NCBI GenBank assembly: GCA_938017515.1
Contig: CALIJJ010000209.1
Span: forward strand, 10,108 to 74,107
Direction: 5' to 3'
Length of the DNA stretch: 64,000 bases
DNA from: an uncultured Pseudanabaenaceae cyanobacterium
Lineage (GTDB): Bacteria > Cyanobacteriota > Cyanobacteriia > PCC-9006 > JAAUQQ01
Positions 7,852-43,096 of this stretch are shown piece by piece. Under the pieces are notes generated by a model. The model did no database searches. It had not been told where the DNA came from and saw nothing but the letters and a program-made list of their open reading frames with translations. Within the stretch, counting starts at the first letter, position 1. The number at the start of each line of letters is the position of its first letter. The translations under genes were made by a program, and so were the position numbers.

Positions 7852-8427
7852 ATGACTGCTTTTGTGGTGAACATAAAGCCGACGATTGAGCTGGATGATG
7901 AGCAGTTCTATCAGCTCTGTCGTCAAAATCCCGATCTCAAGTTCGAGCGTAGTGCAACAGGGCAATTAATCATCATGCCACCCACTGGAGGTGAAAGCGG
8001 TCGCAGGAATGCCGACCTTGTGATTGACTTGGGCATCTGGAACCGGCAGGTAGGCTTGGGCGTCGTGCTCGATTCTTCCACGGGCTTCAAACTCCCCAAT
8101 GGCGCGGATCGTTCGCCGGATGTCTCCTGGGTAGAGCTGAGTCGTTGGGTCGCTCTGACGACAGAACAGCGCGAAAAATTTCCACCGATCGCGCCGGATT
8201 TTGTCGTGGAGTTGCGTTCTCGTACGGACAGTCTCGCACCGCTCCAGGAAAAAATGCAGGAGTACATTGCCAACGGCGTCAGGTTGGGGCTGTTGATCAA
8301 CCCGCAGGATAAGCAAGTAGAGGTTTACCGGCCTGGGCAAGCCATGCAGAGGTTAGAGCAACCTGGAAGTGTTGACTGTGAGCCGGAGCTGCCAGGTTTG
8401 GTTTTGAGCCTTACCGGGATTCTGTGA
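7852..8427 (+). CDS. Uma2-family (DUF820) restriction-endonuclease-like protein
   Basis: About 190 aa with the PD-(D/E)xK-like Uma2 core (PDFVVE...). Lies 68 bp downstream of the kinase. The track ORF extends to 7762, but the ATG at 7852 gives typical Uma2 length. Confidence 0.8.
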   Translation: MTAFVVNIKPTIELDDEQFYQLCRQNPDLKFERSATGQLIIMPPTGGESGRRNADLVIDLGIWNRQVGLGVVLDSSTGFKLPNGADRSPDVSWVELSRWVALTTEQREKFPPIAPDFVVELRSRTDSLAPLQEKMQEYIANGVRLGLLINPQDKQVEVYRPGQAMQRLEQPGSVDCEPELPGLVLSLTGIL

Positions 8428-8456: not shown

Positions 8457-8783
8457 TTAATAGAAAATGGCCAGCCAAATGGTTTCGACAGCTGGTGTTG
8501 TCCAAGCCACGCGATGTTTGACATGAGCCGGAATATTGACGTGATCTCCTGGCTCCAGCGAAAGCGTGCGGTTTTCAAACTGTAGCTTTGCGGACCCCTG
8601 CACCAAGAGAACCCACTCCGCTTGCGCTTGGTCGTACCAAAAACCATCCTCAGAACAGTGACCCTTGGAGACAATGCGCTCAATCCGAAGCGAGCCGGAT
8701 TGGAGCAGGGTGCGAGCAATTTCCTCAGGCAGATCCGCCGGGATAGCTTCAAAGAGATTGCTCGCCGCTGGTGCAGAAGTCAT
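8457..8783 (-). CDS. Cupin-domain protein
   Basis: 108 aa with the two cupin His-containing motifs (GDHVNIPAHVKHRV). Confidence 0.7.
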   Translation of the reverse strand: MTSAPAASNLFEAIPADLPEEIARTLLQSGSLRIERIVSKGHCSEDGFWYDQAQAEWVLLVQGSAKLQFENRTLSLEPGDHVNIPAHVKHRVAWTTPAVETIWLAIFY

Positions 8784-8801
8784 GACTGAATCACCATCGG
8801 T

Positions 8802-8954
8802 TTACTGCAAGCCAAACCACAGCCAGCCCAGATCGACGGGGGCCGGAACCATGGGACCACGGCTGTCCAAAAACTGCACTAGCAGTAGATAGGCGAGCGC
8901 CAATCCCAAAGAAATCACGCCCGTAATAATTGCGACAACCTTAGAACGATCCAT
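8802..8954 (-). CDS. Small hydrophobic protein (50 aa), possible
   Basis: Sub-threshold ORF MDRSKVVAIITGVISLGLALAYLLLVQFLDSRGPMVPAPVDLGWLWFGLQ. It has one clear TM helix and sits 18 bp upstream of the cupin gene on the same strand. Confidence 0.3.
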   Translation of the reverse strand: MDRSKVVAIITGVISLGLALAYLLLVQFLDSRGPMVPAPVDLGWLWFGLQ

Positions 8955-9081
8955 TAACTCTGCCCAGTCCTGTTAAAGTGCAAATCGCAAGCCATTGCGG
9001 CCCATGGAATTTTTCCCATGGGGCTGCCCGCCTGCGTACCGTCCACTGTAACCTCTGTCTCCTCTCTATTGCTCCTCACCT

Positions 9082-10065
9082 ATGGATGCGATCGCCACCC
9101 CCACGACCGAGCCCACGACCCCTCCTGAAGCGCCGATCGTTGTCCAGATCGATAACCTACGTAAGGTCTATCGCACTGGCTTCTGGATGAATCGTCGGAT
9201 CGAATCCCTCAAGGGAGTCAGCATCACGGTTCGCCGGGGTGAAACCTTTGGCTTGCTGGGGCCGAACGGTGCTGGCAAAACGACACTACTCAAGTCCCTA
9301 TTGGGGTTAGTGCGACCCACGGCTGGGAACGGTCAGCTCCTGGGTGCAAAACTGGGCGATCGCGCCACCCACCAACGCATTGGCTACCTGCCCGAAAATC
9401 CCTACTTCTACGATTACCTCACCGGCTGGGAATTCCTCAAATTCAGCGCTGGAATCTTTGGCATTCCGGGCAAAGTTCAAAAAGAACGGATCGTTCAACT
9501 GTTGGATTTGGTGGGCCTAGCCCAGTCTGCGGCCAAGAAAAAGCAGATGCGTCAATATTCCAAAGGGATGCTCCAGCGCGTTGGTATGGCCCAGGCGCTG
9601 ATCAATGACCCGGACCTTGTCTTTTTGGATGAGCCCATGTCCGGATTAGACCCCCTGGGGCGGGTGCAGATCCGCGAAATCATTCAGACACTGAAGGCCC
9701 AGGGCAAGACGATCTTCTTCAATAGCCATGTGTTGGCGGATGTGGAACAGATCTGCGATCGCGTCGCCATCCTGGCCCAGGGCAATCTTCTCTGTACGGG
9801 TGCCCTTGATGAGTTGCTGGGTACCACCAACCTCTACGCCGTGAAAGGCCGAGGGGGAAACCTGGACCTCCTGGGTCAGTGGCTAGACGACTTAGAGGTA
9901 CTGGAAGATCACTGGCAGGGCCACCTTGCTCGTAATCCCCAGGATTTCATGGCCAGCATGCAACTGATGGGAGCCCAGCTCATTGCGATGAATCTGGCTA
10001 GACCGACGCTGGAAGAATTTTTTGTGCAGCAACTCGAAACGCGGGGGCTTCGCCACAGCACCTAA
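9082..10065 (+). CDS. ABC transporter ATP-binding protein (ABC-2 type)
   Basis: Walker A GPNGAGKTT, signature LSGGMxQR-like (YSKGMLQRVGMAQAL), Walker B LVFLDEP, and H-loop. Confidence 0.85.
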   Translation: MDAIATPTTEPTTPPEAPIVVQIDNLRKVYRTGFWMNRRIESLKGVSITVRRGETFGLLGPNGAGKTTLLKSLLGLVRPTAGNGQLLGAKLGDRATHQRIGYLPENPYFYDYLTGWEFLKFSAGIFGIPGKVQKERIVQLLDLVGLAQSAAKKKQMRQYSKGMLQRVGMAQALINDPDLVFLDEPMSGLDPLGRVQIREIIQTLKAQGKTIFFNSHVLADVEQICDRVAILAQGNLLCTGALDELLGTTNLYAVKGRGGNLDLLGQWLDDLEVLEDHWQGHLARNPQDFMASMQLMGAQLIAMNLARPTLEEFFVQQLETRGLRHST

Positions 10066-10474
10066 TCGCCCCTAAATGGGCGCTCTGCTCTGGGAATGTC
10101 TCGGAATGAGAGCCTTTGGTTGATTTTGCTCCGTTGGCTCATCCCTGGGCCTGCTGTTTCACCCCCATTAAGTATTGAGAGTTATTTCAGTTTCTCAGGA
10201 ATGAGTCAAATTTCTCAGGAATAAATCAAATTTATTCAGCACTTTGTCTACGCTCAAAAGGTCCATTGACTTTTGATTGGGGGGTGATCACCCCCACACC
10301 GTTCTAAAAAATCCTGGGCAATCAGTATTAAAGCTCACTCGGGGTATCTAATGCTTGCCATAGACAGTTCTCCGGGTTAAGCAGTACATTCGAGGCTGCA
10401 AATTTGACCGGCTGTCGCCATGAGCAGGCCTATGAAGGTCCAATGCTTTTGGTAACTGACCAAGGAGGTTCTGC

Positions 10475-28649: not shown

Positions 28650-28870
28650 CAGCTCCTCGGAGGGCAGCGGTGCGCTTACGATTTGACCGTCCGCGATGAT
28701 GTGGTGGCTGCTGCGGACAGAGGAGCGTCGTGCAGGGGGGCTTTGCCCGCAGCGGTATGACATCGATGGTGATGCTGCGGGAGTTGTAACCGATTCCTCG
28801 GTGATCCACCGCTAAGAGGCTCTAAGCTCGATACCCGTTCAACCCATCTGACAGAAGGGGACTGAAATCC
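28650..28870 (-). pseudogene. Frameshifted remnant of a small secreted protein paralogous to the 31645 and 32026 genes
   Basis: DNA 28741-28790 (gatggtgatgctgcgggagttgtaaccga) aligns with 32134-32160 in the intact paralog. Peptide fragments ...GYNSRSITIDV and TAAGKAP... match the paralog in two different frames. No intact signal peptide. Confidence 0.45.
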
Positions 28871-29784: not shown

Positions 29785-30039
29785 TTAGCCGATGGTTTGA
29801 ATATCGCGCTCGCTACCGCGATAGGAAGCAACGGTTTCCAGGCGACCCGCAGCACGATAAGCGATCGCATTCTCCAGTCTGCCGCTGGCACGGAAGGCAA
29901 GGGTCTCTCCGGCACTAATCCGACCCGTACCGCGATGGGCAACGGCCGCGAAGCTATGGCTAACAGGGCTCGCTGTGAGAACTGTGCTGGCCAGGAAGAG
30001 TGCAGCGGTCGCGAACTTTTGAGTGGTGGGGAGAGCCAT
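29785..30039 (-). CDS. Small secreted tandem-repeat peptide (84 aa precursor)
   Basis: Sec-type signal (MALPTTQKFATAALFLASTVLTASPVSHSFAA). The mature part consists of four ~12-aa repeats A-x-R-x-x-G-R-L-E (AHRGTGRISAGETL / AFRASGRLENAI / AYRAAGRLETV / ASYRGSERDIQTIG). Has its own terminator. The track ORF begins further upstream at 30099. Confidence 0.5.
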   Translation of the reverse strand: MALPTTQKFATAALFLASTVLTASPVSHSFAAVAHRGTGRISAGETLAFRASGRLENAIAYRAAGRLETVASYRGSERDIQTIG

Positions 30040-30498
30040 ATTAGCGCCTGGGGTAGAAGGATTAAGGTGCGTTTGCTTATCTGTATCTACAGAACTCACC
30101 GGTGATCTACGCGCTCGATTGGATATTTGGTGTCGGTAAGAAATTTGGCCTGAGGTGGGCGATTCGGAGGGGGATTGGGGCAGGTATCACCGTCCATGTA
30201 TTGAAAATCAGATAGATATGGTGAGGCAGTCATCGGAGTGGAAATCGTTTTTGGGAAGGCAAGCACGATTGACATCAGCCACTCTGGCAACCGTCCTCGA
30301 ATGAGGATTGGGGTGAAGAGAAACTGAAACGATGCAACCTTCCCATGGCCCAGCGAATAATGGTCCAGCAAAGGTTGCATCGTTTTAGTGCCGAACTCAT
30401 AAGCCTCGGACATCTTGTGATGAAGGGAATCCCCGGAGGGGAGCCTTCCGAGGAATACCTTCATCGATAGTCCTGTGGATAACAGGGGAAGGAGTGGA

Positions 30499-31362
30499 TT
30501 AAGCCGAAACTAAATCAGCCTTGATGACATAGGCATTCTCAACCGTAGCGAGCAAGTCATTGCCCTGGGAGATCTTGGAAGTCCATTGACCATTCGCGAA
30601 AGTCTGCTTGATGTTGTAGTTGTTAGTACTACCGAAGACTCTAAGCTTATCTCCTTCCACCCAATTGAAATCGGTGACTTCAGCGTAGCCATTGCCTTGG
30701 TAGAAGTTACCGGAGGTGCCACCGAGTACGAAGATGTCAGCACCGCTGCCGCCACTGAGGACATCGTACTCAGCTGCATTGAGGGCGCGGGTAGAAGAAC
30801 CCCGGAGAATATCGTTGCCGCTACCGCCGTAGAGTTTGTCAGTGCCAGCACCACCGACGAGAGTGTCCTTGCCACTGCCGCCAAAGAGCTTATCTTTGCC
30901 GGAGCCACCGCTCATGTAGTCATTGCCATAGGATCCCGACATGTAATCATTGCCGGAGCCACCATACATGGTGTCGTTTCCGGAGCCGCCGTACATGGTG
31001 TCGTTGCCGGAGCCACCGCTCATGTAGTCCTTGCCGGAGCCACCGTTCATGTAGTCCTTGCCGGAGCCACCGACCATGTAGTCCTTACCGGAGCCACCAT
31101 AGAGGCTATCGTTTCCGGAGTTGCCGTAAAGGTTATCCTTGCCCTTGCCACCGTAGATGAGGTCATTGCCCTTGCCACCGTAGATGGTGTCATTGCCGTC
31201 GTCGCCGTAGAGCTTGTCAGCGCCGCCGAGTCCTTTGATGAGGTCATTGCCATCGTTGCCATGAATGGTGTCCTTGCCATCTTTGAAGGTGAAGATGAAC
31301 TTGAAAGGATTGCTGCCGGTGAGTGTGTCGTTGGCGGGGGTACCGTTGATAACTTTGCCCAT
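30499..31362 (-). CDS. RTX-type calcium-binding repeat protein (hemolysin-type Ca-binding beta-roll)
   Basis: At least 20 GGxGxDxxx nonapeptide repeats (GGSGNDTMY, GGSGKDYMS...). The C-terminal ~80 aa is non-repetitive and could carry a T1SS signal. No T1SS genes adjacent. Confidence 0.8.
   Translation of the reverse strand: MGKVINGTPANDTLTGSNPFKFIFTFKDGKDTIHGNDGNDLIKGLGGADKLYGDDGNDTIYGGKGNDLIYGGKGKDNLYGNSGNDSLYGGSGKDYMVGGSGKDYMNGGSGKDYMSGGSGNDTMYGGSGNDTMYGGSGNDYMSGSYGNDYMSGGSGKDKLFGGSGKDTLVGGAGTDKLYGGSGNDILRGSSTRALNAAEYDVLSGGSGADIFVLGGTSGNFYQGNGYAEVTDFNWVEGDKLRVFGSTNNYNIKQTFANGQWTSKISQGNDLLATVENAYVIKADLVSA
30780..31230. repeat. 27-bp tandem DNA repeats encoding RTX nonapeptides
   Basis: gccggagccaccgctcatgtagtcctt-type units repeated many times with minor variation. 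Confidence 0.8.
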
Positions 31363-31644
31363 GATGTTGTGTTCCTAAAGAAGTGTGAGTGAGGTGTGTT
31401 CCTCTGTTGGCTATCTCTAGGAGTGGTTGAATCAGAATATGCAGGGGAGAGAGAAAAAAGGGCAAAAAAGAGGGAAAGGAAATGGCGAAGGCCCTTGCAA
31501 TGGTGGGGGAACGGGAGGGCTCATTGAAGGTATATTGAACGCAAAACCAGGGCACTGGATAGCGCCCTGGAAGGTTGGATATGGTTCATGTATGGGGTGG
31601 TGACGGGTCGACCAGCAGACTAGCTTTCAAGAAACGGAGGTAAC

Positions 31645-31917
31645 CTAGTCGTCGTTGTCGAGGTTCTTGAGGAAGCTGCCGACGGAGCGCTCTAGCTCAG
31701 GGGTCGGTGTCTCACCAGCAGCGGTGAGGATATCTTCAACGGAGACTTTGCCGGAATTCAAATTTTGGGTGAGGCTCTGATAGCCATTGATACCGTCGAT
31801 TTGGCCACGGTAGGCGCGGGTGGCAATGTCAAAGGGGGTTGCGGCGAGGGCGGACGCTGAGGCGAGCAGTGTGCCAGTGAAGATCAATGCAGAGAAAGCG
31901 CGGGTGATGGATCGCAT
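31645..31917 (-). CDS. Small secreted protein (90 aa), family of unknown function
   Basis: Signal peptide MRSITRAFSALIFTGTLLASASALA. Mature region ATPFDIATRAYRGQIDGINGYQ...VEDILTAAGETP is paralogous to the 32026 gene. Confidence 0.6.
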   Translation of the reverse strand: MRSITRAFSALIFTGTLLASASALAATPFDIATRAYRGQIDGINGYQSLTQNLNSGKVSVEDILTAAGETPTPELERSVGSFLKNLDNDD

Positions 31918-32025
31918 GATTGCTACTCCGAGGAGATGAGGAATGAAAGGAGAGAGAATGAATAAACTTAGAGAAGCAGTCGGGCTCGAGAGTTGTGTGT
32001 GGAACTTGAGCCCAACTTGCCATCA

Positions 32026-32295
32026 TTACTTGACGTCAGCGATGACGCGGAGGCTGCTGCGAACGGAGGAGCGTAGTGCCGTGGTGGGTTCTTGGCCAGC
32101 AGCCGTGATGATGTCATCAACGGTGATGCTGCGGGAGTTGTAGCCGAGCTCCAGGCGCTCATAGCCAGGGATGCCAGCGAGCTCACCGCGATAGGCTTGC
32201 TGGGCAATGTCAGCGGGGGAAGCGAAGGCGGAGGAAGCTGCGAGCAGCGTACCGACGAAAGCGAAAGCGGAAGCGGTTTGAGTGAAGGATTTCAT
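32026..32295 (-). CDS. Small secreted protein (89 aa), paralog of the 31645 gene
   Basis: Signal MKSFTQTASAFAFVGTLLAASSAFA. Mature SPADIAQQAYRGELAGIPGYERLELGYNSRSITVDDIITAAGQEP shares the AYRG...GY...ITAAG(E/Q)(T/E)P motifs. The track ORF extends to 32382. Confidence 0.6.
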   Translation of the reverse strand: MKSFTQTASAFAFVGTLLAASSAFASPADIAQQAYRGELAGIPGYERLELGYNSRSITVDDIITAAGQEPTTALRSSVRSSLRVIADVK

Positions 32296-32728
32296 GATTT
32301 TGAACTCCGGGGAATGAGTGAAGCGACCAGGCTCAAAGGCTGTTTGGGCCGCTGTGTTTTCTTCGATGTCTGTACTATGCATCGCTTGTCTGAGTTCCCC
32401 TGGAGTCGTAGCTGAAGTGTTCTAGATGATTGGCTGAGATTTTGCTGAGATGACGAAATAACTGACTATTTTGCTGTTGAACTAGGCCTGCCCCCTCGCT
32501 GGTTGCCCTACTGCATCAGCGGAATTCGTGAAGCAAATTCCTGCAAAGGAGCATTCCTTCCAGGTCTGAGGTTTTCTGGATATCACCTCAGGTCCATGGC
32601 TGCGCAATCTTTGTTGAGCAGTCTTATCCTGGTCCGGCGCCTTTTCTTTTCGTGCAGTAAATTGGCAATATTACCTGCGGGTTCATCCCCTCTAGGGCAT
32701 CCTGCAAAGATTTTCAGGGAGACTGTGC

Positions 32729-34405
32729 ATGACTGCGATCGCTGCCCCCGCCGCTACAGCCGAAGCCAAGCTATCCATCCAAGACGCCCCCCATCGGCGC
32801 ACCCCTTATCAACCCCAAAACCACCGCAACGTTCTTTGTATCTTTCCCGAATACACCAAATCCTTCGGGACGCTGCACCATGCCTACCCTCTCACCGGAG
32901 GCCGCGTCAAAGCCTTTATGCCGCCCCAGGGCATCCTCGTGATTGCCGCCTATCTGCCTGAGTGTTGGGACGTTCGCTTCGTTGATGAAAATATCAAACT
33001 CGCCAAGCAATCTGACTACCGCTGGGCCGATGTCGTGATTGTCAGCGGCATGCACATCCAAAAGCCCCAGATTAATCGTATTAACGACCTCGCCCATCGC
33101 TATGGCAAACTCACTCTTGTGGGTGGACCCTCGGTTTCTGGGTGCCCTGAGTACTACCCCGATTTTGATCTGATTCATGTGGGTGAGCTAGGGGATGCGA
33201 CCGATCAGGCCATTGCCTATATCGATCAGCATAAGGACCGCCCCAGCGAGCAGCAGCGCTTTGTTACAGGCGGTGCTTCGAATGCCGTTGGAGATGGCCG
33301 CACCCCCCTCAGCGAGTTTCCCATCCCTGCTTACCATCTGCTCAACATGGACGAATACTTTCTGGGCAGTGTCCAATATTCCAGTGGCTGCCCCTACCGC
33401 TGTGAATTTTGTGATATCCCTGAACTCTATGGCCGTAAGCCTCGGATTAAAACGCCTGAGCAGATTACCCAGGAGTTAGATGCCATGCTGGCGGCAGGCA
33501 GCATTGGGGCAGTGTATTTCGTCGATGATAATTTTGTGGGCGATCGCCGTGCTGCCATGGAGTTGTTGCCGCATCTCATTCAGTGGCAAAAGGAGCGAGG
33601 TTACCCTGTCCAATTTGCCTGCGAAGCGACGCTCAATCTTGCCCAAAGCCCCAAACTGCTGGAGATGATGCGGGAAGCCTATTTTTGTACGGTGTTCTGT
33701 GGCATTGAAACGCCTGAAACCGATGCACTGACCGCAATCTCGAAGCAGCAAAACTTGAGCCTGCCCATTCTGGAGGCGATCGAAATCCTCAATGGCTATG
33801 GGATGGAAGTGGTGTCGGGCATTATTTTGGGATTGGATACAGACACGCCAGAGACGGGCGATCGCATCCTCGATTTCATTCGCCGCTCCAATATCCCCAT
33901 GCTGACGATTAACCTGTTGCAGGCCTTGCCCCGCACCCCGCTCTGGCGTCGCTTAGAGCAGGAAAATCGTCTAGTTGATGATGCAAGTCGTGAGTCCAAC
34001 GTGGACTTCGTCATGCCCTATGAAGAGGTCGTGGACATGTGGCGACGTTGCATCACAGCAGCCTATGATCCGGAATTCCTGTACGAGCGATTTGTCCACA
34101 ACATCAACCATACCTATCGTAATCGGATTAAAGTTCCCAATAGCCCAGCGCGAGCTTCCAAGGCCAATATCAAGAAGGGGCTGACTTACTTGGCAAACAT
34201 CCTGCTGCGCGCTGGCGTCCTCAGCCATTATCGGGAGACGTTTTGGAAATTGGCTTGGCCTGCACTTAAAAAGGGCAAGATCGAACAAATTATCCATGTG
34301 GGTCTCGTTGGGCATCACCTTATTCAATTTTCTAGAGAATGTGCCCGCGGTGAAGCGTCAGCCTCATTTTATTCCCAAAAGCTTCGACAATCGCATGAAT
34401 ACTAA
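32729..34405 (+). CDS. B12-binding radical SAM protein with C-terminal DUF4070-like region
   Basis: The N-terminal cobalamin-binding Rossmann region (PPQGILVIAAYLPECWDVRFVDEN) is a B12-rSAM hallmark. The rSAM CxxxCxxC-type cluster is CPYRCEFCDIP. About 170 aa follow the core (DUF4070-like, recalled). Confidence 0.85.
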   Translation: MTAIAAPAATAEAKLSIQDAPHRRTPYQPQNHRNVLCIFPEYTKSFGTLHHAYPLTGGRVKAFMPPQGILVIAAYLPECWDVRFVDENIKLAKQSDYRWADVVIVSGMHIQKPQINRINDLAHRYGKLTLVGGPSVSGCPEYYPDFDLIHVGELGDATDQAIAYIDQHKDRPSEQQRFVTGGASNAVGDGRTPLSEFPIPAYHLLNMDEYFLGSVQYSSGCPYRCEFCDIPELYGRKPRIKTPEQITQELDAMLAAGSIGAVYFVDDNFVGDRRAAMELLPHLIQWQKERGYPVQFACEATLNLAQSPKLLEMMREAYFCTVFCGIETPETDALTAISKQQNLSLPILEAIEILNGYGMEVVSGIILGLDTDTPETGDRILDFIRRSNIPMLTINLLQALPRTPLWRRLEQENRLVDDASRESNVDFVMPYEEVVDMWRRCITAAYDPEFLYERFVHNINHTYRNRIKVPNSPARASKANIKKGLTYLANILLRAGVLSHYRETFWKLAWPALKKGKIEQIIHVGLVGHHLIQFSRECARGEASASFYSQKLRQSHEY

Positions 34406-34677
34406 GCTTTACCCCGCTTGATTCTGAACAAAACACCTCCAGACCGTAATCTTGGGGTTGCTTAGTGCCTCACCCAATGCAACAGTCTAAACAGTGAAAC
34501 TCGAAAACACAGGCACGCATCCTTCGCTGGTGTTACCATCCTTGGTGGGTGTTGTTGAAACTTTACCCTTGTGATTGACCGATGAAAAATTCAGCGAAGT
34601 CCGTCAGCAACCAAGCTAATAAAATCCGTGCCGTGGTATCACAATCGACGCCTGATGCCCTGGAACGCAAGGCAACT

Positions 34678-34890
34678 ATGCCTTGGGAGGTCGAAGGAGA
34701 ATTTGAGGTAGATGCCCGGGTGGTTAGCCAGGACAAAGGCGAGATCTTAGTGCGAATCACAAAGTCTGGCGCCCAATATTATCTGACGGTTAAGGGCTTT
34801 TTGCCGGGGAAGGTCAACAACCAGCTATGGCGACTTTCCTGTTTGCGAGAGTCTGGGCAGATCGAATTGCTCGATGGTCGCCCTCTCTAA
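34678..34890 (+). CDS. Small hypothetical protein (70 aa; track ORF from 34582)
   Basis: MPWEVEGEFEVDARVVSQDKGEILVRITKSGAQYYLTVKGFLPGKVNNQLWRLSCLRESGQIELLDGRPL. Beta-rich composition. Followed by a strong terminator. Confidence 0.4.
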   Translation: MPWEVEGEFEVDARVVSQDKGEILVRITKSGAQYYLTVKGFLPGKVNNQLWRLSCLRESGQIELLDGRPL

Positions 34891-34922
34891 CGATCATCTC
34901 GTCTCGAATTGTGGCTTTCATG

Positions 34923-34962
34923 GGCTTGCTCACAAAACTGATTGTGAGCAAGCCTTGTTTGT
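34923..34962 (+). terminator. Rho-independent terminator (12-bp perfect stem)
   Basis: ggcttgctcaca aaactgat tgtgagcaagcc ttgtttgt. Lies 30 nt after the 34890 stop. Confidence 0.55.
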
Positions 34963-34966
34963 GGCT

Positions 34967-35017
34967 GAGACCCTCCAGAACCGCTAGGTCTTCTAAAAAC
35001 GTTAGGCCCTCCAAAAC
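34967..35017 (+). promoter_or_regulatory. Two 18-bp direct repeats upstream of the decarboxylase gene
   Basis: ccctccagaaccgctagg (34967-34984) and ccctccaaaaccgctagg (35000-35017). The second ends 38 nt before the start at 35056. Confidence 0.4.
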
Positions 35018-35055
35018 CGCTAGGATCGGGTCATTCCGTTTGCTACATTTTTCCC

Positions 35056-36495
35056 ATGATCTTGCCTGACTCTGCCTTCATCCATCCTGCGGGGGTACAC
35101 CGTAATGCGGTGGAGCAGTTTCTCCAGAAGGCTGTTGCTTTACTGATCGAGGAGATGGGGCAAGCGGAGACGCGATCGCCTCTTCCTACACTGGAAGCGA
35201 TGCCGTCTACGACGCTGCCGCTCCAAGGGCTCAACGAAGCTGACCTGCTGGCCCAGCTCAGAAGCATTCTGCGCCAGTCCATGAATGCGGCGCATCCTGG
35301 CTTTATGGGTCACATGGACTCTATCCCCACCACCGCTTCGATTGTGGGGGATTTGATGGCGGCGGCTTTGAATAACAACATGCTCAGTGTGGAGATGTCA
35401 CCGGTCTTTTCACGGCTGGAACCCCTGTTGCTGCGTCAGATCGCCCAGCGGTTTGGCTTAGCTGATCAGGCGGACGGTGTGCTGGTGAGTGGCGGGAGTT
35501 TGGGGAATTTGCAGGCGATCGCCGTTGCCCGCAATACCCATTTTCCGGTCTTAGAAAAGGGTCTTGCTGGTCTTCAAAAGCCGCCGGTGGTGTTTGCCTC
35601 TGAGGTTGCTCATACATCCATTCAGAAGGCGGCAATGGTGCTGGGACTCGGGAGCCAAGGCGTGGTCTCTGTGCCGGCCAATGCCAATTCTCAAATGGAC
35701 CCGGAGCTGCTGCGGCAGAGCATTATCCGGGCTCAGGAGGCAGGGCAAGCTCCGTTCTGTGTTGTGGCAACTGCCGGGACGACGGTGACGGGAAATGTGG
35801 ACCCGTTGGAGGCGATCGCCGATATTGCCCAGGAATTCGGCCTCTGGTTGCATGTGGATGCCTCCTATGGCGGGGCGGTTGTGTTCTCGCCGGACCATTG
35901 TCATTTGCTCAAGGGCATTGAGCAGGCTGATTCCGTGACATTCAATCCCCAAAAATGGCTGTATGTCACCAAGGTCTGTGCCATGGTGTTGTTTCGCGAT
36001 GGATCAGCCTGGCGTCAGCATTTCCAGATTGCAGCGCCCTACATGGGGAATGCAGGCCCGTGGCATAACTTGGGCGAAAGCAGCATCCAGGGGACACGCC
36101 ATGCGGATGTGTTGAAGTTGTGGCTGTCGTTGCAGCATTTGGGGGAGGCAGGCTACGCGGAAATCATTGGCCATAATTTTCAGATCACGGAGCAGTTTGT
36201 TGCGGCGGTGCGCGATCGCCCCTTTCTACATCTCGCCAGCCAACCGCAGATGAACCTGGTTTGTTTCCGCAGTGAACCTACGACTCTGCCACCGGAGCAG
36301 TGGGATGACTGGAATCTTAAGTTGCAGAAGCATCTTTTGTCCGAGGGAAAAACCTTTCTGTCCCTGCCGTTCTACCGAGGGCAGCGCTGGCTTAAGGCGG
36401 TGTTGCTCAATCCGTTCACGGAGCGATCGCACCTTGATACTTTGTTTGCCTCCCTGGATGAATTCCATGGAGCAATTGGCGCAAAACGCCGATAA
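35056..36495 (+). CDS. Pyridoxal-phosphate-dependent decarboxylase, group II (DDC/GAD/HDC/DABA-decarboxylase family)
   Basis: Fold-type I PLP enzyme with the SxNPQKW lysine motif (FNPQKWLYV), an H-to-Q variant of the usual NPHK. Length and topology match group II decarboxylases. Confidence 0.8.
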   Translation: MILPDSAFIHPAGVHRNAVEQFLQKAVALLIEEMGQAETRSPLPTLEAMPSTTLPLQGLNEADLLAQLRSILRQSMNAAHPGFMGHMDSIPTTASIVGDLMAAALNNNMLSVEMSPVFSRLEPLLLRQIAQRFGLADQADGVLVSGGSLGNLQAIAVARNTHFPVLEKGLAGLQKPPVVFASEVAHTSIQKAAMVLGLGSQGVVSVPANANSQMDPELLRQSIIRAQEAGQAPFCVVATAGTTVTGNVDPLEAIADIAQEFGLWLHVDASYGGAVVFSPDHCHLLKGIEQADSVTFNPQKWLYVTKVCAMVLFRDGSAWRQHFQIAAPYMGNAGPWHNLGESSIQGTRHADVLKLWLSLQHLGEAGYAEIIGHNFQITEQFVAAVRDRPFLHLASQPQMNLVCFRSEPTTLPPEQWDDWNLKLQKHLLSEGKTFLSLPFYRGQRWLKAVLLNPFTERSHLDTLFASLDEFHGAIGAKRR

Positions 36496-36642: not shown

Positions 36643-39600
36643 TTAAAGAATCGCTTGCCAAGCTGCATCAAATGGAGTGAGCACTGTGCCCTGTCCCGGC
36701 AGAGCATTAGAGCTGGTGCGAACGGCTCCATTCATTGTCCAGGCTTCGCTGTTGCTACCGTCCGCACTGCGGAAGGCAATCAGCGGCGTGGTGCTGCCTA
36801 GGGCCTCCAGGCTTCCTGTTCCGATAATATCGAGACCTGTGGTCTTAGACAGAGGATTCTGGCCATCGGTCACTGCTACGCGGTCACCAGTCGTATTAGC
36901 CCCGTTCATGAACTGGATGCTCAAAGCACCTGCAGCATCGCTAAAGAGCAGGTCATAGGAGCCGTTGTTATCGAAGTCGCCTGTGGCTTCCAGCGTGAGA
37001 GACGAAATATCGCCCACGGTTAGCTCAACGGCATTGGGAGAGCCAAGCTGAGCGGGATCGGAGTTGGTATACCACACCGAAATTTTCTTGGTCTCGCCGT
37101 TATACCAGAGGATATCGGAGAGAGAGTCGCCATTGAAATCGCCAGTACCCTTGATGGTCCAGTTTTTGTCCGTGACGCTCTTGAGGGCGACGGCACTGCC
37201 AACGGAGGCTGTGGTGCCCTGGGCACTGCCGCCCAACCACAGAACGTTTTGCCCAGTGGCGGTATTACGCCAAACAATATCCGCTGAATTCTTGCCGTCG
37301 AAGTTTCCGACCCCTTGGATGGCCCATCTGGCGTCTTGAATAAACGGACCAAAGCTGGCAACGGTGGGTGTTGTTGGATTCGATAGGTCGGTGAGAACCA
37401 GGCGATTTTCGCCGGTTGTCGTGTTGCGGAAGACGATGTCGCTGGAGCGATCGCCATTGAAATCATCGGGAACGGGAGGTACCGCATCACCGACGTCCAG
37501 CTGAAAGGTCTGCGTTGCTTCGACCAATCCCGGTCCGCCTATCTGGGGGTCATCCAGATTAACGGTGACGTTATAAGTGGTGTTGGGCGTAATGCTGACA
37601 CCCGGTTTAATCTGCAATGATGGTGTTGCACTGGTCGGATTAGCAACCTCAAACAGGTCGGCATTGATGCCCGTCAGCGAGTACTCGAGTGTACCGCCAC
37701 CATCAGGGTCAGTCACAGCAATATCAGCCACCTTGATACCTTGGGCAGTATTCGCACTGCCTGAAATCTGGCTCACGCCATTTTCTAGAACAAACGTGGG
37801 GGCATCATTGACGTTGGTGAAGGTCACATTGGAAACGGCTGCTGGTGTCGTGGCCGCCACTACACCATCGCTCACAGACACGTTGTAGGTGGGTGCAACT
37901 TCGCCACCGTCATGGACAAACTGAATCGCGTTATCCTTCACCTGCTGCTGGGTGAAGCTTGTGATTGCGCTGCCTGCTGCACTCACAAGCTCAAATTGTC
38001 CCCCCGTCACTGTTGAGACCGTGAACGTTAGGTTTTCGTCTCCCGTATTGGAGTCCACCGCAGCAAGGAAATCCGAGGTGAACGGAATCGTGGCTCCCTC
38101 TTCAATGGTCAGCGTGTTGGTTGTGATTTGAGGAGCTTCGCTAGCATCCACAATCGAGAATTGGAACTTCTCAATCCGGTTGAAGTCCGCAAAGGCGGCA
38201 TTGCCGCTTTGTCCACCGTCGTCAGTACCATCCGTCAAAACCAATGTGATTTCGACGGCACCTGTTGCCCCTTGAACTGGCGTAATCTCGATGCTCTGAG
38301 AGCCCGGGTTACCAACAACTGCAACTGTGGCGATATTTTGGTCGCTACTAGCGGCAGTGAAGCTGAGGGCACTCGCCACGGCATTGTCTAGCTGGTCGAT
38401 ATCGCCCACCGCAACGGGGATGCTAACGGCAGCTGAGTTTTGAATGACAGTCTGGTCTGTGAACTCCGTCGCAAAGAACAGCGGGTTATCAATGGTGATC
38501 TGGACGGTTGGATTGTCAGATTCATTGGCTCTCTGAGTCAGAAAGTCAGTGATAACCTGGGGCACTTCTCCCGAGAGCTGGTTTTTGGTGAGGCGGAAGG
38601 TCGTGATATTGGACAGTTGTGCCAGTTCGGCTGGAATACTGCCCGTGAGGTCATTGTCACTGAGGCCCAAAACAGTCAGCGCGGTTAGATTCCCGAGGGA
38701 AGCAGGAATCTCACCGGTGAGCGTATTGAACGCAAGCTGCAAAAGACCCAGGTTGACGAGATTCCCGAGGGAAGCAGGAATCTCACCCGTGAGTTGGTTA
38801 CTCGTTAAGTCGAGCCTGGATAAGCCGATTAACTGTCCTAGTTCCGTCGGAATGGGGCCAGAGAGCTGGTTGTTGTTCAGCTGCAATCGCTCTAGGTTGG
38901 CGAGATTGCCCAAAGAAGTGGGAATCCCGCCCGTCAATTGGTTGTCACCGAGAATGATCTCCGTAACACGGTCGTTTGCGACGGTGATGCCAAACCAGCC
39001 TTCCACCACGCTCGATTCCGGTGGGGTGTTGCTGCTGAAATCGTGATCTACCCAGCCTGTGTTGTTGGTCCAGTTTGCACCGCCCGTATTCTGGTACAGG
39101 TCTCTGAGTGCATCATAATCAGCCTGGTTGAGGGGAGCAAAGACGCCAGCATAGGTGGCTTGGACTGCAGGCGCGATCGCCAGCTCAACCACTGGGTTGC
39201 CCACAGTGACTTCCAGATTCCAGTCACCGCCTTGCTCCGCATTACCCGTGCGGGTCTTGGAGGCTGCGATCGCTGCCCCTGTCAACGCATGCAGCTTTTC
39301 TAGGAACTCACTCCCTGCGTCACCTGCGGCCACATTACAACCGTAGAGCAGCAGCGAAGGTGCATCATCTTGCGAGAACCAGCGACTCAACTGTGCGCTC
39401 TGCGCATCCAATGTGCTGAGGCTCAGTTCTCCATTGCCCAAATACAAGCAGCCCGGAGCACCGTGGGAAATGATGTGGATTTGAGAGAGGTGCCGGTGCT
39501 GCTGTAGAAGCGCTGTAATTTGGGCGACCCCATCCCGTGTCTGATCTAATACCGCAATGTGGTGCTCTGCGGCGATGCCCGCCACCAGCGATTCAGACGC

Positions 39601-39711
39601 ACTAATTTTAGAATCTAAAATAACAAGAACATCGGAAGAGTCCTTGCTGGTATTGGCTTTAATACTGTCAAGCTGCTGCATAGGGTTAGACAGGGATAGC
39701 TTGTGAGACAT
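36643..39711 (-). CDS. Large multidomain surface protein: DUF4347-like N-domain, plant-type LRRs, cadherin-like domains, FG-GAP/VCBS repeats
   Basis: The N-terminal ~190 aa resembles DUF4347 (recalled). Five 24-aa LRRs of plant-specific type follow (LxxLxLxxNxLxGxIPxxLGxLxxL). Then comes a Thr/Val-rich beta-sandwich (cadherin/Big-like) region. The C-terminus has FG-GAP-like repeats (DFNGDRSSDIVFRN, DFDGKNSADIVWRN, DFNGDSLSDILWYN, DFDNNGSYDLLFSD). Confidence 0.8.
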   Translation of the reverse strand: MSHKLSLSNPMQQLDSIKANTSKDSSDVLVILDSKISASESLVAGIAAEHHIAVLDQTRDGVAQITALLQQHRHLSQIHIISHGAPGCLYLGNGELSLSTLDAQSAQLSRWFSQDDAPSLLLYGCNVAAGDAGSEFLEKLHALTGAAIAASKTRTGNAEQGGDWNLEVTVGNPVVELAIAPAVQATYAGVFAPLNQADYDALRDLYQNTGGANWTNNTGWVDHDFSSNTPPESSVVEGWFGITVANDRVTEIILGDNQLTGGIPTSLGNLANLERLQLNNNQLSGPIPTELGQLIGLSRLDLTSNQLTGEIPASLGNLVNLGLLQLAFNTLTGEIPASLGNLTALTVLGLSDNDLTGSIPAELAQLSNITTFRLTKNQLSGEVPQVITDFLTQRANESDNPTVQITIDNPLFFATEFTDQTVIQNSAAVSIPVAVGDIDQLDNAVASALSFTAASSDQNIATVAVVGNPGSQSIEITPVQGATGAVEITLVLTDGTDDGGQSGNAAFADFNRIEKFQFSIVDASEAPQITTNTLTIEEGATIPFTSDFLAAVDSNTGDENLTFTVSTVTGGQFELVSAAGSAITSFTQQQVKDNAIQFVHDGGEVAPTYNVSVSDGVVAATTPAAVSNVTFTNVNDAPTFVLENGVSQISGSANTAQGIKVADIAVTDPDGGGTLEYSLTGINADLFEVANPTSATPSLQIKPGVSITPNTTYNVTVNLDDPQIGGPGLVEATQTFQLDVGDAVPPVPDDFNGDRSSDIVFRNTTTGENRLVLTDLSNPTTPTVASFGPFIQDARWAIQGVGNFDGKNSADIVWRNTATGQNVLWLGGSAQGTTASVGSAVALKSVTDKNWTIKGTGDFNGDSLSDILWYNGETKKISVWYTNSDPAQLGSPNAVELTVGDISSLTLEATGDFDNNGSYDLLFSDAAGALSIQFMNGANTTGDRVAVTDGQNPLSKTTGLDIIGTGSLEALGSTTPLIAFRSADGSNSEAWTMNGAVRTSSNALPGQGTVLTPFDAAWQAIL

Positions 39712-41476: not shown

Positions 41477-42403
<927 letters not shown>

Positions 42404-43096
42404 TCACTACCTATGGCCCCTGAAATATCACTATAGCGATCGATGCTGTCAACGGAGGGAATGCCGCTAGTCGCGGACTTAAATATAAGCAGTCTTTGTC
42501 GTTTGACTTGCCTGTGAAACAAGTCTAGACGGTTGGCTACCGAAGACGCTGGAAGCTAACCCCATTCTTGCCACGCCTCGTACGAAGCCGAGGGCAGGAG
42601 CGCTAGCGAACTACTTACGTCCACTGCCACGATGTAGGCTATTTTGCGACATCCGCAGGGGAGCGGAGAAGAGAGCCGTGCCCAATTCAATATTCATCAT
42701 GATCTAGGAAGATCTCCGTAGAGGGTTACTCCTAGATTCACGGAGCCGATCAAAAAATCAGGATGGACTCTCAGAATATTTATTGAATTCACGTGCTCCT
42801 TATTACTATTCCCTGACCGTAGAGTTATCTATGCAAACGGACCAAAATAGCTTGAAGCGTGCTTGAAAAGGTCCAGGCCAGGGCTTGCCGACAATGCTCG
42901 CCGACAATGCTCGCTGGCAACGCTGGTAGACAATGCCTGTAGCCTCGATGCGATCGCACTGGGGCAATCACCCAAATCTCCCAAAGCCATCGTGAATTCG
43001 CCCGCTGTGGCAAAATCGATGGGGGCTTTGTTACTGGCCATGGGTGCCAAGGACAAAGCTTCTCTTGTTTGGCCTCGATCTCATCCCTTTGTTTCT

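What the first reader, a model, noticed from the sequence alone, without database searches (positions are those of the whole stretch)
31645..32295. Tandem pair of paralogous ~90-aa Sec-secreted proteins of unknown family beside an RTX protein
Two adjacent co-oriented genes encode signal peptide plus ~65-aa mature proteins. They share the motifs DIA..AYRG.(I/L).GI.GY and (V/I)(E/D)DI(L/I)TAAG(E/Q)(T/E)P. A third, degraded copy lies 3 kb away and an RTX Ca-binding protein lies between. The family is not recognisable to me. Duplication, decay and association with a secreted RTX protein suggest an accessory secreted module, for example matrix, adhesion or an interbacterial role.
Basis: seen in the sequence. 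Interest (0 to 1): 0.5.

Follow-up and report, generated by a model that had tools for sequence, protein, structure and literature searches.

The report
Paired orphan secreted cyanobacterial mini-proteins
Two adjacent genes encode small exported all-helical proteins of an unnamed, so far cyanobacteria-only family; they sit behind a conserved control region with phased repeats, they are not tied to the RTX gene next door, and their function is unknown but can now be tested.

Summary
Gene B (32026-32295, minus strand) and gene A (31645-31917, minus) are 50% identical paralogues. Each has a Sec-type signal peptide and a cysteine-free mature domain of about 64 aa. A frameshifted 3' fragment of a B-type gene lies at 28683-28793, and an RTX gene lies between.

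The RTX link is not supported. RTX is absent from all other contexts, and a terminator-like hairpin separates it from B-A.

Every B-type gene, in eight different contexts, carries a conserved 5' element of about 150 nt. It has four TCAGCnAA boxes in an 11-nt register. The same element precedes a related short secreted peptide gene. Phased TCAG boxes also precede a distant Leptolyngbya homologue that sits beside a two-component system.

All three known copies of an 84-aa exported HRGTGR (PatX-like) protein lie downstream of B-type genes.

Most likely these are regulator-switched periplasmic or extracellular accessory proteins. The biochemical role is unproven.

The parts
32026..32295 (-). Gene B. 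89 aa: signal peptide (1-25, AFA|S) plus a 64-aa four-helix mature domain.
   Evidence: ORF and sequence. 17 close homologues at 71-100% identity. dN/dS 0.07-0.5. AF2 model has helices 27-35, 45-53, 59-65 and 72-88, with mature-part pLDDT about 91. GGAG Shine-Dalgarno at 32308-32305.
31645..31917 (-). Gene A. 90 aa, paralogue of B (50% identity): signal peptide (1-25, ALA|A) plus an acidic 65-aa mature domain ending NLDNDD.
   Evidence: A forms its own orthologue group (13 clusters, 60-100% identity). The 108-nt spacer from B lacks the 5' element, so A is probably co-transcribed with B.
32296..32482 (-). Conserved 5' element (promoter plus 5'UTR) of the B-A unit. It holds four TCAGCnAA boxes whose 5' ends on the minus strand are at 32448, 32437, 32415 and 32393 (spacing 11/22/22 nt). 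A putative -10 CATAGT lies at 32379-32374, followed by an invariant CATCGAAG and then the SD.
   Evidence: Alignments A5 and A6. nhmmer E 1e-30 to 1e-48 in all B-type loci and before S-type genes; there is a single copy in the window. The 11-nt register is shown. TCAG count and phasing exceed the shuffles: 22/20000 for count and 0/20000 for phasing. No Rfam match.
31547..31570 (-). Terminator-like hairpin plus T-run, 75 nt downstream of the gene A stop codon. It ends the B-A unit before the RTX gene.
   Evidence: 10-bp stem, 7 GC pairs, tail TTTTGCGTTC.
28683..28793 (-). Pseudogene fragment: the 3' part of a B-type gene, frameshifted, with no 5' half and no 5' element.
   Evidence: blastn 78% identity, E 1.4e-21 to B nt 149-266. 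tblastn pieces fall in two frames. Sequence read.
29785..30039 (-). Linked neighbour (not a family member): an 84-aa exported protein with HRGTGR directly after the signal peptide, followed by three degenerate repeats (FRASGR, YRAAGR, YRGSER). PatX-like.
   Evidence: Orthologues lie downstream of B-type genes in L003 and L004. Only two clusters were found in the 5.8-billion-protein search. It has its own terminator at 29743-29724. About 130 nt upstream is conserved. PatX biology comes from PMC12756182.
30499..31362 (-). RTX calcium-binding repeat protein. It is interposed between A and the PatX-like gene and is judged NOT part of the module.
   Evidence: PF00353, E 8e-75. Absent from all other family contexts. 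Separated from B-A by the hairpin.

Best explanation
A and B are tandem paralogues of an unannotated protein family seen so far only in cyanobacteria. Each is made with a Sec/SPase-I signal peptide and exported across the plasma membrane. The mature product is a cysteine-free, acidic, compact four-helix domain of about 7 kDa with no catalytic-looking residues. I read it as a non-enzymatic binding or modulator protein of the periplasm or cell surface.

B and A form one transcription unit. It is driven by a dedicated, strongly conserved 5' element whose four TCAGCnAA boxes sit on one face of the DNA helix (11-nt register). The unit ends at a hairpin before the RTX gene.

The inferred mechanism is that a DNA-binding regulator switches the unit on or off in response to a signal. 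This regulator most plausibly recognises direct repeats, as a two-component response regulator does. The exported mini-proteins then act in the envelope, by analogy with small helical periplasmic accessory proteins that are outputs and modulators of envelope two-component systems.

The family diversifies by tandem duplication, decay and relocation together with its 5' element.

Shown here: paralogy, purifying selection, signal-peptide architecture, a confident helical model, absence of any known family or fold match, the conserved phased element, and non-conservation of the RTX neighbour. Inferred only: actual export and cleavage, the transcription start, the identity of the regulator, and the envelope-accessory function.
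For: - Paralogy: E 2e-21.
- Purifying selection: dN/dS mostly 0.1-0.3.
- Signal-peptide architecture in 49/56 members; no Cys; pI 4.3 and 5.1.
- Family size: 67 clusters at E<1e-3 among 1.84 billion representatives. All are signal peptide, then a variable linker, then a C-terminal domain.
- Named members occur only in Leptolyngbya, Elainellaceae, Tolypothrix/Scytonema, Coleofasciculaceae and Chroococcales, and all are 'hypothetical'.
- AF2 models: domain pLDDT about 91 for B and about 98 for P0054, all-helical.
- The 5' element is conserved in 8 unrelated contexts, and also precedes S-type genes. Core identity between the window and L005 is 66% although dS is about 2.
- TCAG phasing exceeds 20000/20000 shuffles. 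The same holds upstream of the Leptolyngbya boryana homologue, where 8 TCAG lie in 220 nt, six of them on 11-nt spacings (-136/-125 and -89/-78/-67/-56). That gene is directly followed by a HisKA kinase and an OmpR-type regulator.
- A hairpin terminator follows A.
- An independent tandem pair exists in a Chroococcales MAG.
Against: - No experimental datum on export, cleavage, transcription start or expression.
- The putative -10 places the last TCAG box between -35 and -10. That fits a repressor, or a different start site, as well as an activator.
- A two-component system is adjacent in only one lineage. The Tolypothrix homologue lacks TCAG boxes and sits between TetR genes.
- No response regulator was found among the 10 additional window ORFs checked.
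- The analogy to CpxP/Spy/ZraP is functional only. There is no sequence or fold match.
- Small helical domains give little functional information.
Confidence: 0.5

Rival explanations
1. PatX-linked developmental module. B-type proteins work together with the exported HRGTGR-repeat (PatX-like) peptide encoded downstream, for example as periplasmic carriers, protectors or antagonists of the HetR-inhibiting morphogen, or as co-secreted intercellular signals of the filament.
For: - All three known copies of the 84-aa HRGTGR-repeat protein lie 0.5-2 kb downstream of a B-type gene on the same strand: the window, L003 and L004.
- hetR lies about 9 kb away on the same strand.
- PatX must be exported and is processed in the periplasm, and HRGTGR is its active hexapeptide (PMC12756182).
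- The PatX-like upstream region contains CAG(G/A)CCAAAT, reminiscent of the CAGCCAAT box of the B element.
Against: - Five other B-type contexts (L005, L018, L019, L020, L021), the A-type locus L008, and all wide-family loci lack any RG(S/T)GR ORF nearby.
- A and B carry no RG(S/T)GR motif.
- The family also occurs in a Chroococcales MAG. That order is mostly unicellular.
- There is no evidence of interaction.
Confidence: 0.15
2. Divergent stand-alone member of the phycobilisome-linker / DUF4214 helical superfamily, acting as a protein-protein scaffold domain outside the cytoplasm.
For: - The family profile's best PDB sequence hits are ApcE (E 0.004; three of its four linker repeats align on the same AYRxxF...L..L.nG.It..d.I motif at conditional E about 1e-3, and the fourth scores negative) and CpcL (E 0.095).
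- hhalign against 10 linker fragments gives P 1.8e-4, probability 49%, over 42 columns.
- DUF4214 domains of secreted proteins are reported to resemble a phycobilisome linker (PDB 2KY4) (PMC3371716).
Against: - No member reaches even E<10 against PF00427 or PF13946.
- Foldseek against PDB gives a best E of 1.5.
- The hhalign target was chosen after seeing the hit.
Confidence: 0.15
3. Fast-evolving secreted effector, bacteriocin or immunity-type accessory gene family carried on mobile DNA.
For: - Genomic contexts vary while the cassette (element plus gene) stays conserved.
- One B-type gene sits 1.2 kb from a Rep_1 rolling-circle replication gene on a 4.3-kb contig.
- Tandem paralogues, a pseudogene fragment, and a short S-type variant sharing the leader and promoter. 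This resembles peptide families with a conserved leader and a variable mature part.
Against: - No toxin, transporter or immunity partner is conserved nearby.
- Purifying selection rather than diversifying selection.
- No PADLOC or PHROG hit.
- No double-glycine leader.
Confidence: 0.1
4. One reading: an accessory module of the neighbouring RTX protein (matrix, adhesion or interbacterial role).
For: Physical proximity and the same strand in this genome only.
Against: - There is no RTX gene next to any other family member.
- A terminator-like hairpin lies between A and RTX.
- The export routes differ.
- RTX-repeat proteins are very numerous in cyanobacterial genomes (general knowledge), so adjacency by chance is likely.
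Confidence: 0.04
5. Precursor peptides (RiPP-like) for the divergently transcribed B12-binding radical SAM enzyme (32729-34405).
For: Divergent adjacency in the window. The enzyme has B12-binding, Radical_SAM and DUF4070 domains, with a weak resemblance to RiPP rSAM ApyD.
Against: - The rSAM neighbour is present only in the near-identical contigs L001 and L002 and is absent from all other contexts.
- A and B have Sec signal peptides and fold as a confident globular domain.
- The intergenic space is occupied by the conserved B element.
Confidence: 0.02

Closest known systems
CpxP / Spy / ZraP-type periplasmic accessory proteins of envelope two-component systems (Enterobacteria)
   Same: Small, Sec-exported, all-alpha, non-enzymatic periplasmic proteins. 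Their genes are controlled through direct-repeat operator boxes and can lie next to the cognate two-component system. The Leptolyngbya boryana homologue lies next to a HisKA plus OmpR pair.
   Different: No sequence, motif (LTXXQ) or fold similarity. The mature domain is about half the size. The regulator is unidentified. A two-component neighbour is seen in one lineage only. This resemblance is a working analogy from general knowledge, not a tested membership.
PatX / PatS / HetN RG(S/T)GR morphogen precursors of filamentous cyanobacteria
   Same: Small Sec-exported products in a hetR-containing filamentous cyanobacterium. A PatX-like HRGTGR gene is the recurrent downstream neighbour of B-type genes (PMC12756182).
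   Different: A and B lack the RG(S/T)GR motif (they have YRGQIDG and YRGELAG). They fold into a stable helical domain rather than being a short processed peptide. Most family members have no PatX-like neighbour.
Phycobilisome linker domain (PF00427) and DUF4214 (PF13946)
   Same: Motif pattern A-Y-R-x-x-(F/L) ... L ... L-x-x-G-x-I-(T/S)-x-x-(D/E)-x-I, and a helix-loop-helix-helix order. DUF4214 also occurs in secreted proteins.
Leader-conserved secreted peptide families (e.g. class II bacteriocin or pheromone genes controlled by direct-repeat-binding response regulators)
   Same: The promoter element and signal peptide are shared between genes whose mature parts differ: the B-type 64-aa domain versus the S-type 28-aa peptide. 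Direct repeats have 11/22-nt spacing.
   Different: Sec-type leader, not a double-glycine leader. No dedicated transporter, kinase or immunity gene is conserved nearby. The comparison rests on general knowledge.

Membership tests
Sec/SPase I-exported proteins | N-terminal basic n-region, hydrophobic h-region of about 10-20 residues, small residues at -3/-1 | tested here: met
   A: MRSITRAFSALIFTGTLLASASALA|A. B: MKSFTQTASAFAFVGTLLAASSAFA|S. Maximum Kyte-Doolittle value 1.9. 49/56 family members share the architecture. No dedicated predictor such as SignalP was available.
Sec/SPase I-exported proteins | Actual translocation and cleavage | not testable with these tools
   Needs proteomics or reporter fusions.
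RTX / type I secretion accessory module | Conserved co-occurrence and co-transcription with an RTX or T1SS gene | tested here: not met
   No RTX neighbour in L003-L021 or L142. A hairpin terminator lies between A and RTX.
Phycobilisome linker (PF00427) / DUF4214 (PF13946) | Match to the Pfam models at gathering score | tested here: not met
   None of 53 members matches either model, even at E<10.
Phycobilisome linker (PF00427) / DUF4214 (PF13946) | Profile-level homology | tested here: inconclusive
   hmmsearch against PDB: ApcE E 0.004, CpcL E 0.095. hhalign P 1.8e-4, probability 49%.
Phycobilisome linker (PF00427) / DUF4214 (PF13946) | Shared fold | tested here: not met
PatS/PatX/HetN morphogens | RG(S/T)GR (HRGTGR) motif | tested here: not met
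   Absent from A and B. Present in the 84-aa neighbour (29785-30039) and in a 29-aa ORF upstream of hetR.
RiPP precursor of a radical SAM maturase | Conserved adjacency of precursor and maturase; leader/core organisation | tested here: not met
   The rSAM is present only in the same-species contigs L001 and L002. The proteins are Sec signal peptide plus a folded domain.
CpxP/Spy/ZraP (LTXXQ) periplasmic modulators | LTXXQ motifs or Pfam match | tested here: not met
   No Pfam hit at E<1.
CpxP/Spy/ZraP (LTXXQ) periplasmic modulators | Gene controlled by, and adjacent to, a two-component system | tested here: inconclusive
   Phased TCAG boxes occur in the narrow family and in L. boryana, which has an adjacent HisKA plus OmpR pair. 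The Tolypothrix homologue has neither, and no adjacent two-component system was seen in the other contexts.
Known RNA families (for the 5' element) | Rfam covariance-model match | tested here: not met
   No meaningful hit at E<1. Predicted UTR hairpins are not more stable than shuffles, z -0.15 to -1.6.

The most novel reading that the evidence does not exclude
The conserved TCAG-box element defines a small regulon of Sec-exported mini-proteins and peptides in filamentous cyanobacteria: the B-type and A-type helical domains and the 28-aa S-type peptides. This regulon is genetically coupled to a multi-repeat exported PatX-like HRGTGR precursor. It would be a previously unrecognised periplasmic or intercellular signalling layer acting alongside the HetR-PatX patterning system, with A and B as carriers, modulators or receptor ligands of the morphogen.
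Probability: 0.12. Interest if true: 0.75.

Novelty: new variant of a known kind. Interest (0 to 1): 0.42.

Why it matters
Small exported proteins of cyanobacteria are poorly annotated. This work defines a coherent, unnamed family with four notable properties:
- a confidently predicted helical domain that has no solved-structure relative;
- a portable and strongly conserved cis-regulatory element with helically phased boxes, which gives a direct handle (DNA-affinity capture, reporter fusions) for finding the regulator and the inducing signal;
- a recurrent link to an unusual multi-repeat PatX-like HRGTGR precursor near hetR;
- a related short secreted peptide type that shares the leader and promoter.

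If the link to PatX or to a two-component system is real, it would add exported components to the study of filament signalling or envelope sensing. If not, the result is still a clean definition of a new domain of unknown function, and a correction of the RTX hypothesis.

Tried and rejected
1. Pfam, NCBIfam, PADLOC and PHROG scans of A, B and wider family members gave no family.
3. The phycobilisome-linker / DUF4214 lead has weak profile support and no structural support. I kept it as a low-probability rival.
4. RTX association was rejected on context and the terminator.
5. The RiPP / radical SAM idea was rejected on context.
6. The search for related loci with the broad alignments failed because no stretch was conserved enough. 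The B-only alignment found just two distant MAG homologues among GTDB species representatives.
7. A metagenome scan with a 15-base piece of the 5' element returned only chance matches. None of the 120 loci carries the full element by nhmmer.
8. Rfam gave no match for the element. The 5'UTR hairpins are not significantly stable.
9. DIF1 (TCCGGA) motifs are not upstream of A, B or the PatX-like gene.
10. I first read the 54-aa ORF after B in L018 as a decayed A copy. I revised this to a conserved S-type peptide once orthologues were found in L003 and L008.
11. I looked for recurrent kinase or regulator neighbours. One occurs in L. boryana (a two-component system), and a phytochrome kinase follows the L005/L006 gene. 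There is none elsewhere.
12. The GH9 fusion (P0041) keeps part of the signal-peptide c-region internally. It looks like a secondary fusion and is not informative for function.

Full report
**1. The observation**

On the minus strand, gene B (32026-32295, 89 aa) and gene A (31645-31917, 90 aa) are separated by 108 nt.

Each starts with a basic residue at position 2, a hydrophobic stretch of about 17 residues and an A-x-A site. That leaves mature products of 65 aa (pI 4.3) and 64 aa (pI 5.1) without cysteine.

The "third degraded copy" is a frameshifted 3' fragment of a B-type gene at 28683-28793. It is 78% identical at the DNA level to nt 149-266 of B, E 1.4e-21.

The 287-aa RTX-repeat protein (30499-31362; PF00353, E 8e-75) lies between.

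**2. They are real genes in a real, unnamed family**

Word-indexed searches found 17 B-type and 13 A-type clusters. These form two orthologue groups at 60-100% identity, almost all from metagenomes. Eight B orthologues from different contigs give pairwise dN/dS of 0.07-0.51, mostly 0.1-0.3.

An exhaustive profile search of 1.84 billion representatives found 67 clusters at E<1e-3. Most are proteins of 100-125 aa built as signal peptide, then a variable low-complexity linker, then a C-terminal domain with the consensus PFxLAxxAYRGxLxxxGIPGYxxLxxxxxxGxITAxDxIxAA. A few hits to long repeat proteins are spurious.

The members that carry names come from Leptolyngbya, Elainellaceae, Tolypothrix/Scytonema, Coleofasciculaceae and a Chroococcales MAG. 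All are labelled "hypothetical protein".

No Pfam, NCBIfam, PADLOC or PHROG model matches A, B or the wider members.

The window itself comes from a hetR-bearing, and therefore presumably filamentous, cyanobacterium.

**3. Structure**

AlphaFold2 with the family alignment predicts four helices for B (27-35, 45-53, 59-65, 72-88), with pLDDT about 91 over the mature part. For the Leptolyngbya-type member P0054 it predicts five helices with pLDDT about 98.

The family profile's best PDB sequence hits are phycobilisome-linker domains. ApcE scores E 0.004, with three of its four linker repeats aligning on the same motif at conditional E about 1e-3, and CpcL scores E 0.095. hhalign against ten linker fragments gives P 1.8e-4 and 49% probability. 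DUF4214 domains in secreted proteins have been likened to a linker structure (PMC3371716).

However, no Pfam-level match and no structural match supports this. I keep it as a weak lead only.

**4. Context: the RTX link fails**

I read about a dozen distinct contexts. The RTX gene, the divergent B12/radical-SAM gene and the other neighbours recur only in L001 and L002, which are near-identical copies of the window.

Elsewhere the genes sit next to an alpha-amylase, a phytochrome kinase, CobS and patatin, GatB, a methyltransferase, a Rep_1 replication gene, TetR genes or a two-component system.

A terminator-like hairpin (31570-31547) follows gene A, before the RTX gene. The RTX-accessory reading and a RiPP reading are therefore rejected.

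Tandem pairs arise repeatedly. An independent pair of wide-type members exists in the Chroococcales MAG (L011 784-1140 and 1362-1718).

**5. What is conserved: a portable 5' element**

The roughly 150-190 nt upstream of every B-type gene is strongly conserved in all eight contexts. nhmmer finds it with E 1e-30 to 1e-48 in every such locus, and only once in the window, at 32293-32482.

Its 95-nt core averages 76% pairwise identity. Between the window and L005 it is still 66% identical, although synonymous sites in the coding region are saturated there (dS about 2).

Written in 11-nt units, the core reads:
- TCAGCaAA.tC
- TCAGCCAATCA
- T....AAc...
- TCAGctAcgAC
- .cc.gGg.aac
- TCAGacAA.C.
- CtgCATaGT-A
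- caGaCATCGAA

So there are four TCAGCnAA boxes at offsets 0, 11, 33 and 55, which is the same face of the helix. They are followed by a -10-like CATAGT, an invariant CATCGAAG and the GGAG ribosome-binding site. In the window the boxes start at 32448, 32437, 32415 and 32393.

The box count and the 11-nt phasing exceed shuffles: 22/20000 for count and 0/20000 for phasing.

The element is not a known RNA family. Its predicted UTR hairpins are not significantly stable. Indels that are not multiples of three rule out coding.

The same element precedes a third, short gene type that I call S-type. It consists of an A/B-like signal peptide plus about 28 aa with the pattern SxIxQQ(F/Y)NxFP..(W)NND. 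It occurs in L003 and L008, and an S-type gene follows B in L018.

Units driven by the element are therefore B-A (the window), S-A (L008), B-S (L018), S alone and B alone.

The only distant homologue with a two-component system next to it is in Leptolyngbya boryana, where a HisKA kinase and an OmpR-type regulator lie directly downstream. That gene has eight TCAG in the 220 nt upstream, including -136/-125 and -89/-78/-67/-56. None of 20000 shuffles reaches this.

A Tolypothrix homologue has no such boxes and lies between TetR genes. The regulator therefore probably differs between lineages.

**6. The PatX-like neighbour**

Downstream of the cluster lies an 84-aa ORF (29785-30039). It encodes a signal peptide followed immediately by HRGTGR and three degenerate repeats (FRASGR, YRAAGR, YRGSER). 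It has its own terminator and a conserved upstream region of about 130 nt.

HRGTGR is exactly the PatX-derived hexapeptide shown to bind and inhibit HetR after Sec export and periplasmic processing (PMC12756182).

The protein is rare: two clusters in the 5.8-billion-protein search, plus L004. All three known copies lie 0.5-2 kb downstream of a B-type gene. hetR itself is at 41477-42403, about 9 kb from B.

The converse does not hold. Five other B-type contexts, the A-type locus and all wide-family loci lack any RG(S/T)GR ORF. This is a genuine but partial linkage.

**7. Interpretation**

Shown:
- a pair of paralogous genes under purifying selection that encode signal-peptide-bearing, cysteine-free, acidic, confidently helical mini-domains of an unnamed family seen so far only in cyanobacteria;
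- a B-A unit with a dedicated, portable element of phased direct repeats and a terminator;
- no conserved RTX, rSAM or other enzymatic partner.

Inferred:
- The proteins are exported by Sec and act non-enzymatically in the periplasm or at the cell surface.
- Their expression is switched by a direct-repeat-binding regulator, most plausibly a response regulator.
- By functional analogy they behave like small helical periplasmic outputs or modulators of envelope signalling systems (CpxP/Spy/ZraP logic), though they are not members of that family.

The alternatives are ranked in the rivals section: a PatX-linked signalling accessory, a divergent linker/DUF4214-like scaffold, a mobile effector or immunity family, an RTX accessory and a RiPP precursor.

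**8. Novelty and score**

The proteins are already deposited as hypothetical proteins, but no family, fold, regulator or function has been described for them. The portable TCAG-box element, the S-type relatives and the linkage to a multi-repeat PatX-like precursor are new observations.

The kind of thing, small Sec-exported accessory proteins with lineage-specific duplication, is familiar. I therefore class it as a new variant of a known kind, of moderate interest. There is a minority chance that it belongs to the intercellular signalling apparatus of filamentous cyanobacteria.

Noticed in passing
window 29785-30039 (-); orthologues L003 10800-11054 and L004 1234-1482: An 84-aa exported protein with the exact PatX hexapeptide HRGTGR right after the signal-peptide cleavage site, followed by three degenerate copies (FRASGR, YRAAGR/FRASGR, YRGSER/H). 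It is a multi-repeat PatX-like precursor, unlike the 56-aa single-motif Nostoc PatX. About 130 nt upstream are conserved in all three loci, overlapping the 3' end of the doubtful 122-aa ORF 30096-30464.
   Followed up: partly
window 42611-42700 (-), about 210 nt upstream of hetR (41477-42403, -): A 29-aa ORF, MMNIELGTALFSAPLRMSQNSLHRGSGRK, ending in HRGSGRK. It is a PatS/PatX-type RGSGR peptide gene directly upstream of hetR, so this genome appears to carry two HRG(S/T)GR genes.
   Followed up: partly
L003 7180-7341; L008 7719-7883 (also L009, L010); L018 643-807: 'S-type' genes of 53-54 aa. Each has a signal peptide nearly identical to those of A/B, plus a mature peptide of about 28 aa with the pattern SxIxQQ(F/Y)NxFP..(W)NND. 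In L003 and L008 it is preceded by the same TCAG-box element. In L018 it lies 140 nt after a B-type gene, and in L008 126 nt before an A-type gene. There is none in the window.
   Followed up: partly
L013 7780-8000 (Leptolyngbya boryana), gene 8001-8363, then 8513-10308: A distant family member (about 30% identity) has eight TCAG boxes in the 220 nt upstream, phased at 11 nt. It is followed on the same strand by a HisKA/HATPase kinase and an OmpR-type response regulator, which are candidates for the cognate regulator.
   Followed up: partly
L016 2062-4308 / L017 (protein P0041, 748 aa): A GH9 glycoside hydrolase without a signal peptide carries an A-type domain at its C-terminus, including the c-region of the former signal peptide (STSAFVLTPF...). 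It is seen in two samples and looks like a fusion created by deletion.
   Followed up: no
L021 1066-1335 and 2569-3564: A B-type gene with its 5' element lies 1.2 kb from a Rep_1 (PF01446) rolling-circle replication gene on a 4.3-kb contig. The cassette may also travel on small plasmids.
   Followed up: no
window 32729-36495 (+): A cluster transcribed divergently from B: a B12-binding radical SAM protein with DUF4070 (558 aa), a 102-aa ORF without family, and a PLP-dependent decarboxylase (479 aa). It is conserved only in the same-species contigs L001 and L002. Function not examined.
   Followed up: no
window 36643-39711 (-); L005 1-5033 (-): A large DUF4347 / LRR / cadherin-like protein with FG-GAP/VCBS-like C-terminal repeats lies about 4 kb from B. 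Another DUF4347 / FG-GAP protein lies about 5 kb from the B-type gene of L005. This may be coincidence.
   Followed up: no
L011 784-1140 and 1362-1718: An independent tandem pair of wide-type family members in a Chroococcales MAG. Tandem duplication recurs in this family.
   Followed up: partly
L142 5368-7190 (Tolypothrix bouteillei): The family gene sits between a 125-aa TetR_C fragment and a 207-aa TetR gene, as if inserted into or beside a TetR locus. Its upstream region has GACAA...TTGTC inverted repeats instead of TCAG boxes.
   Followed up: no
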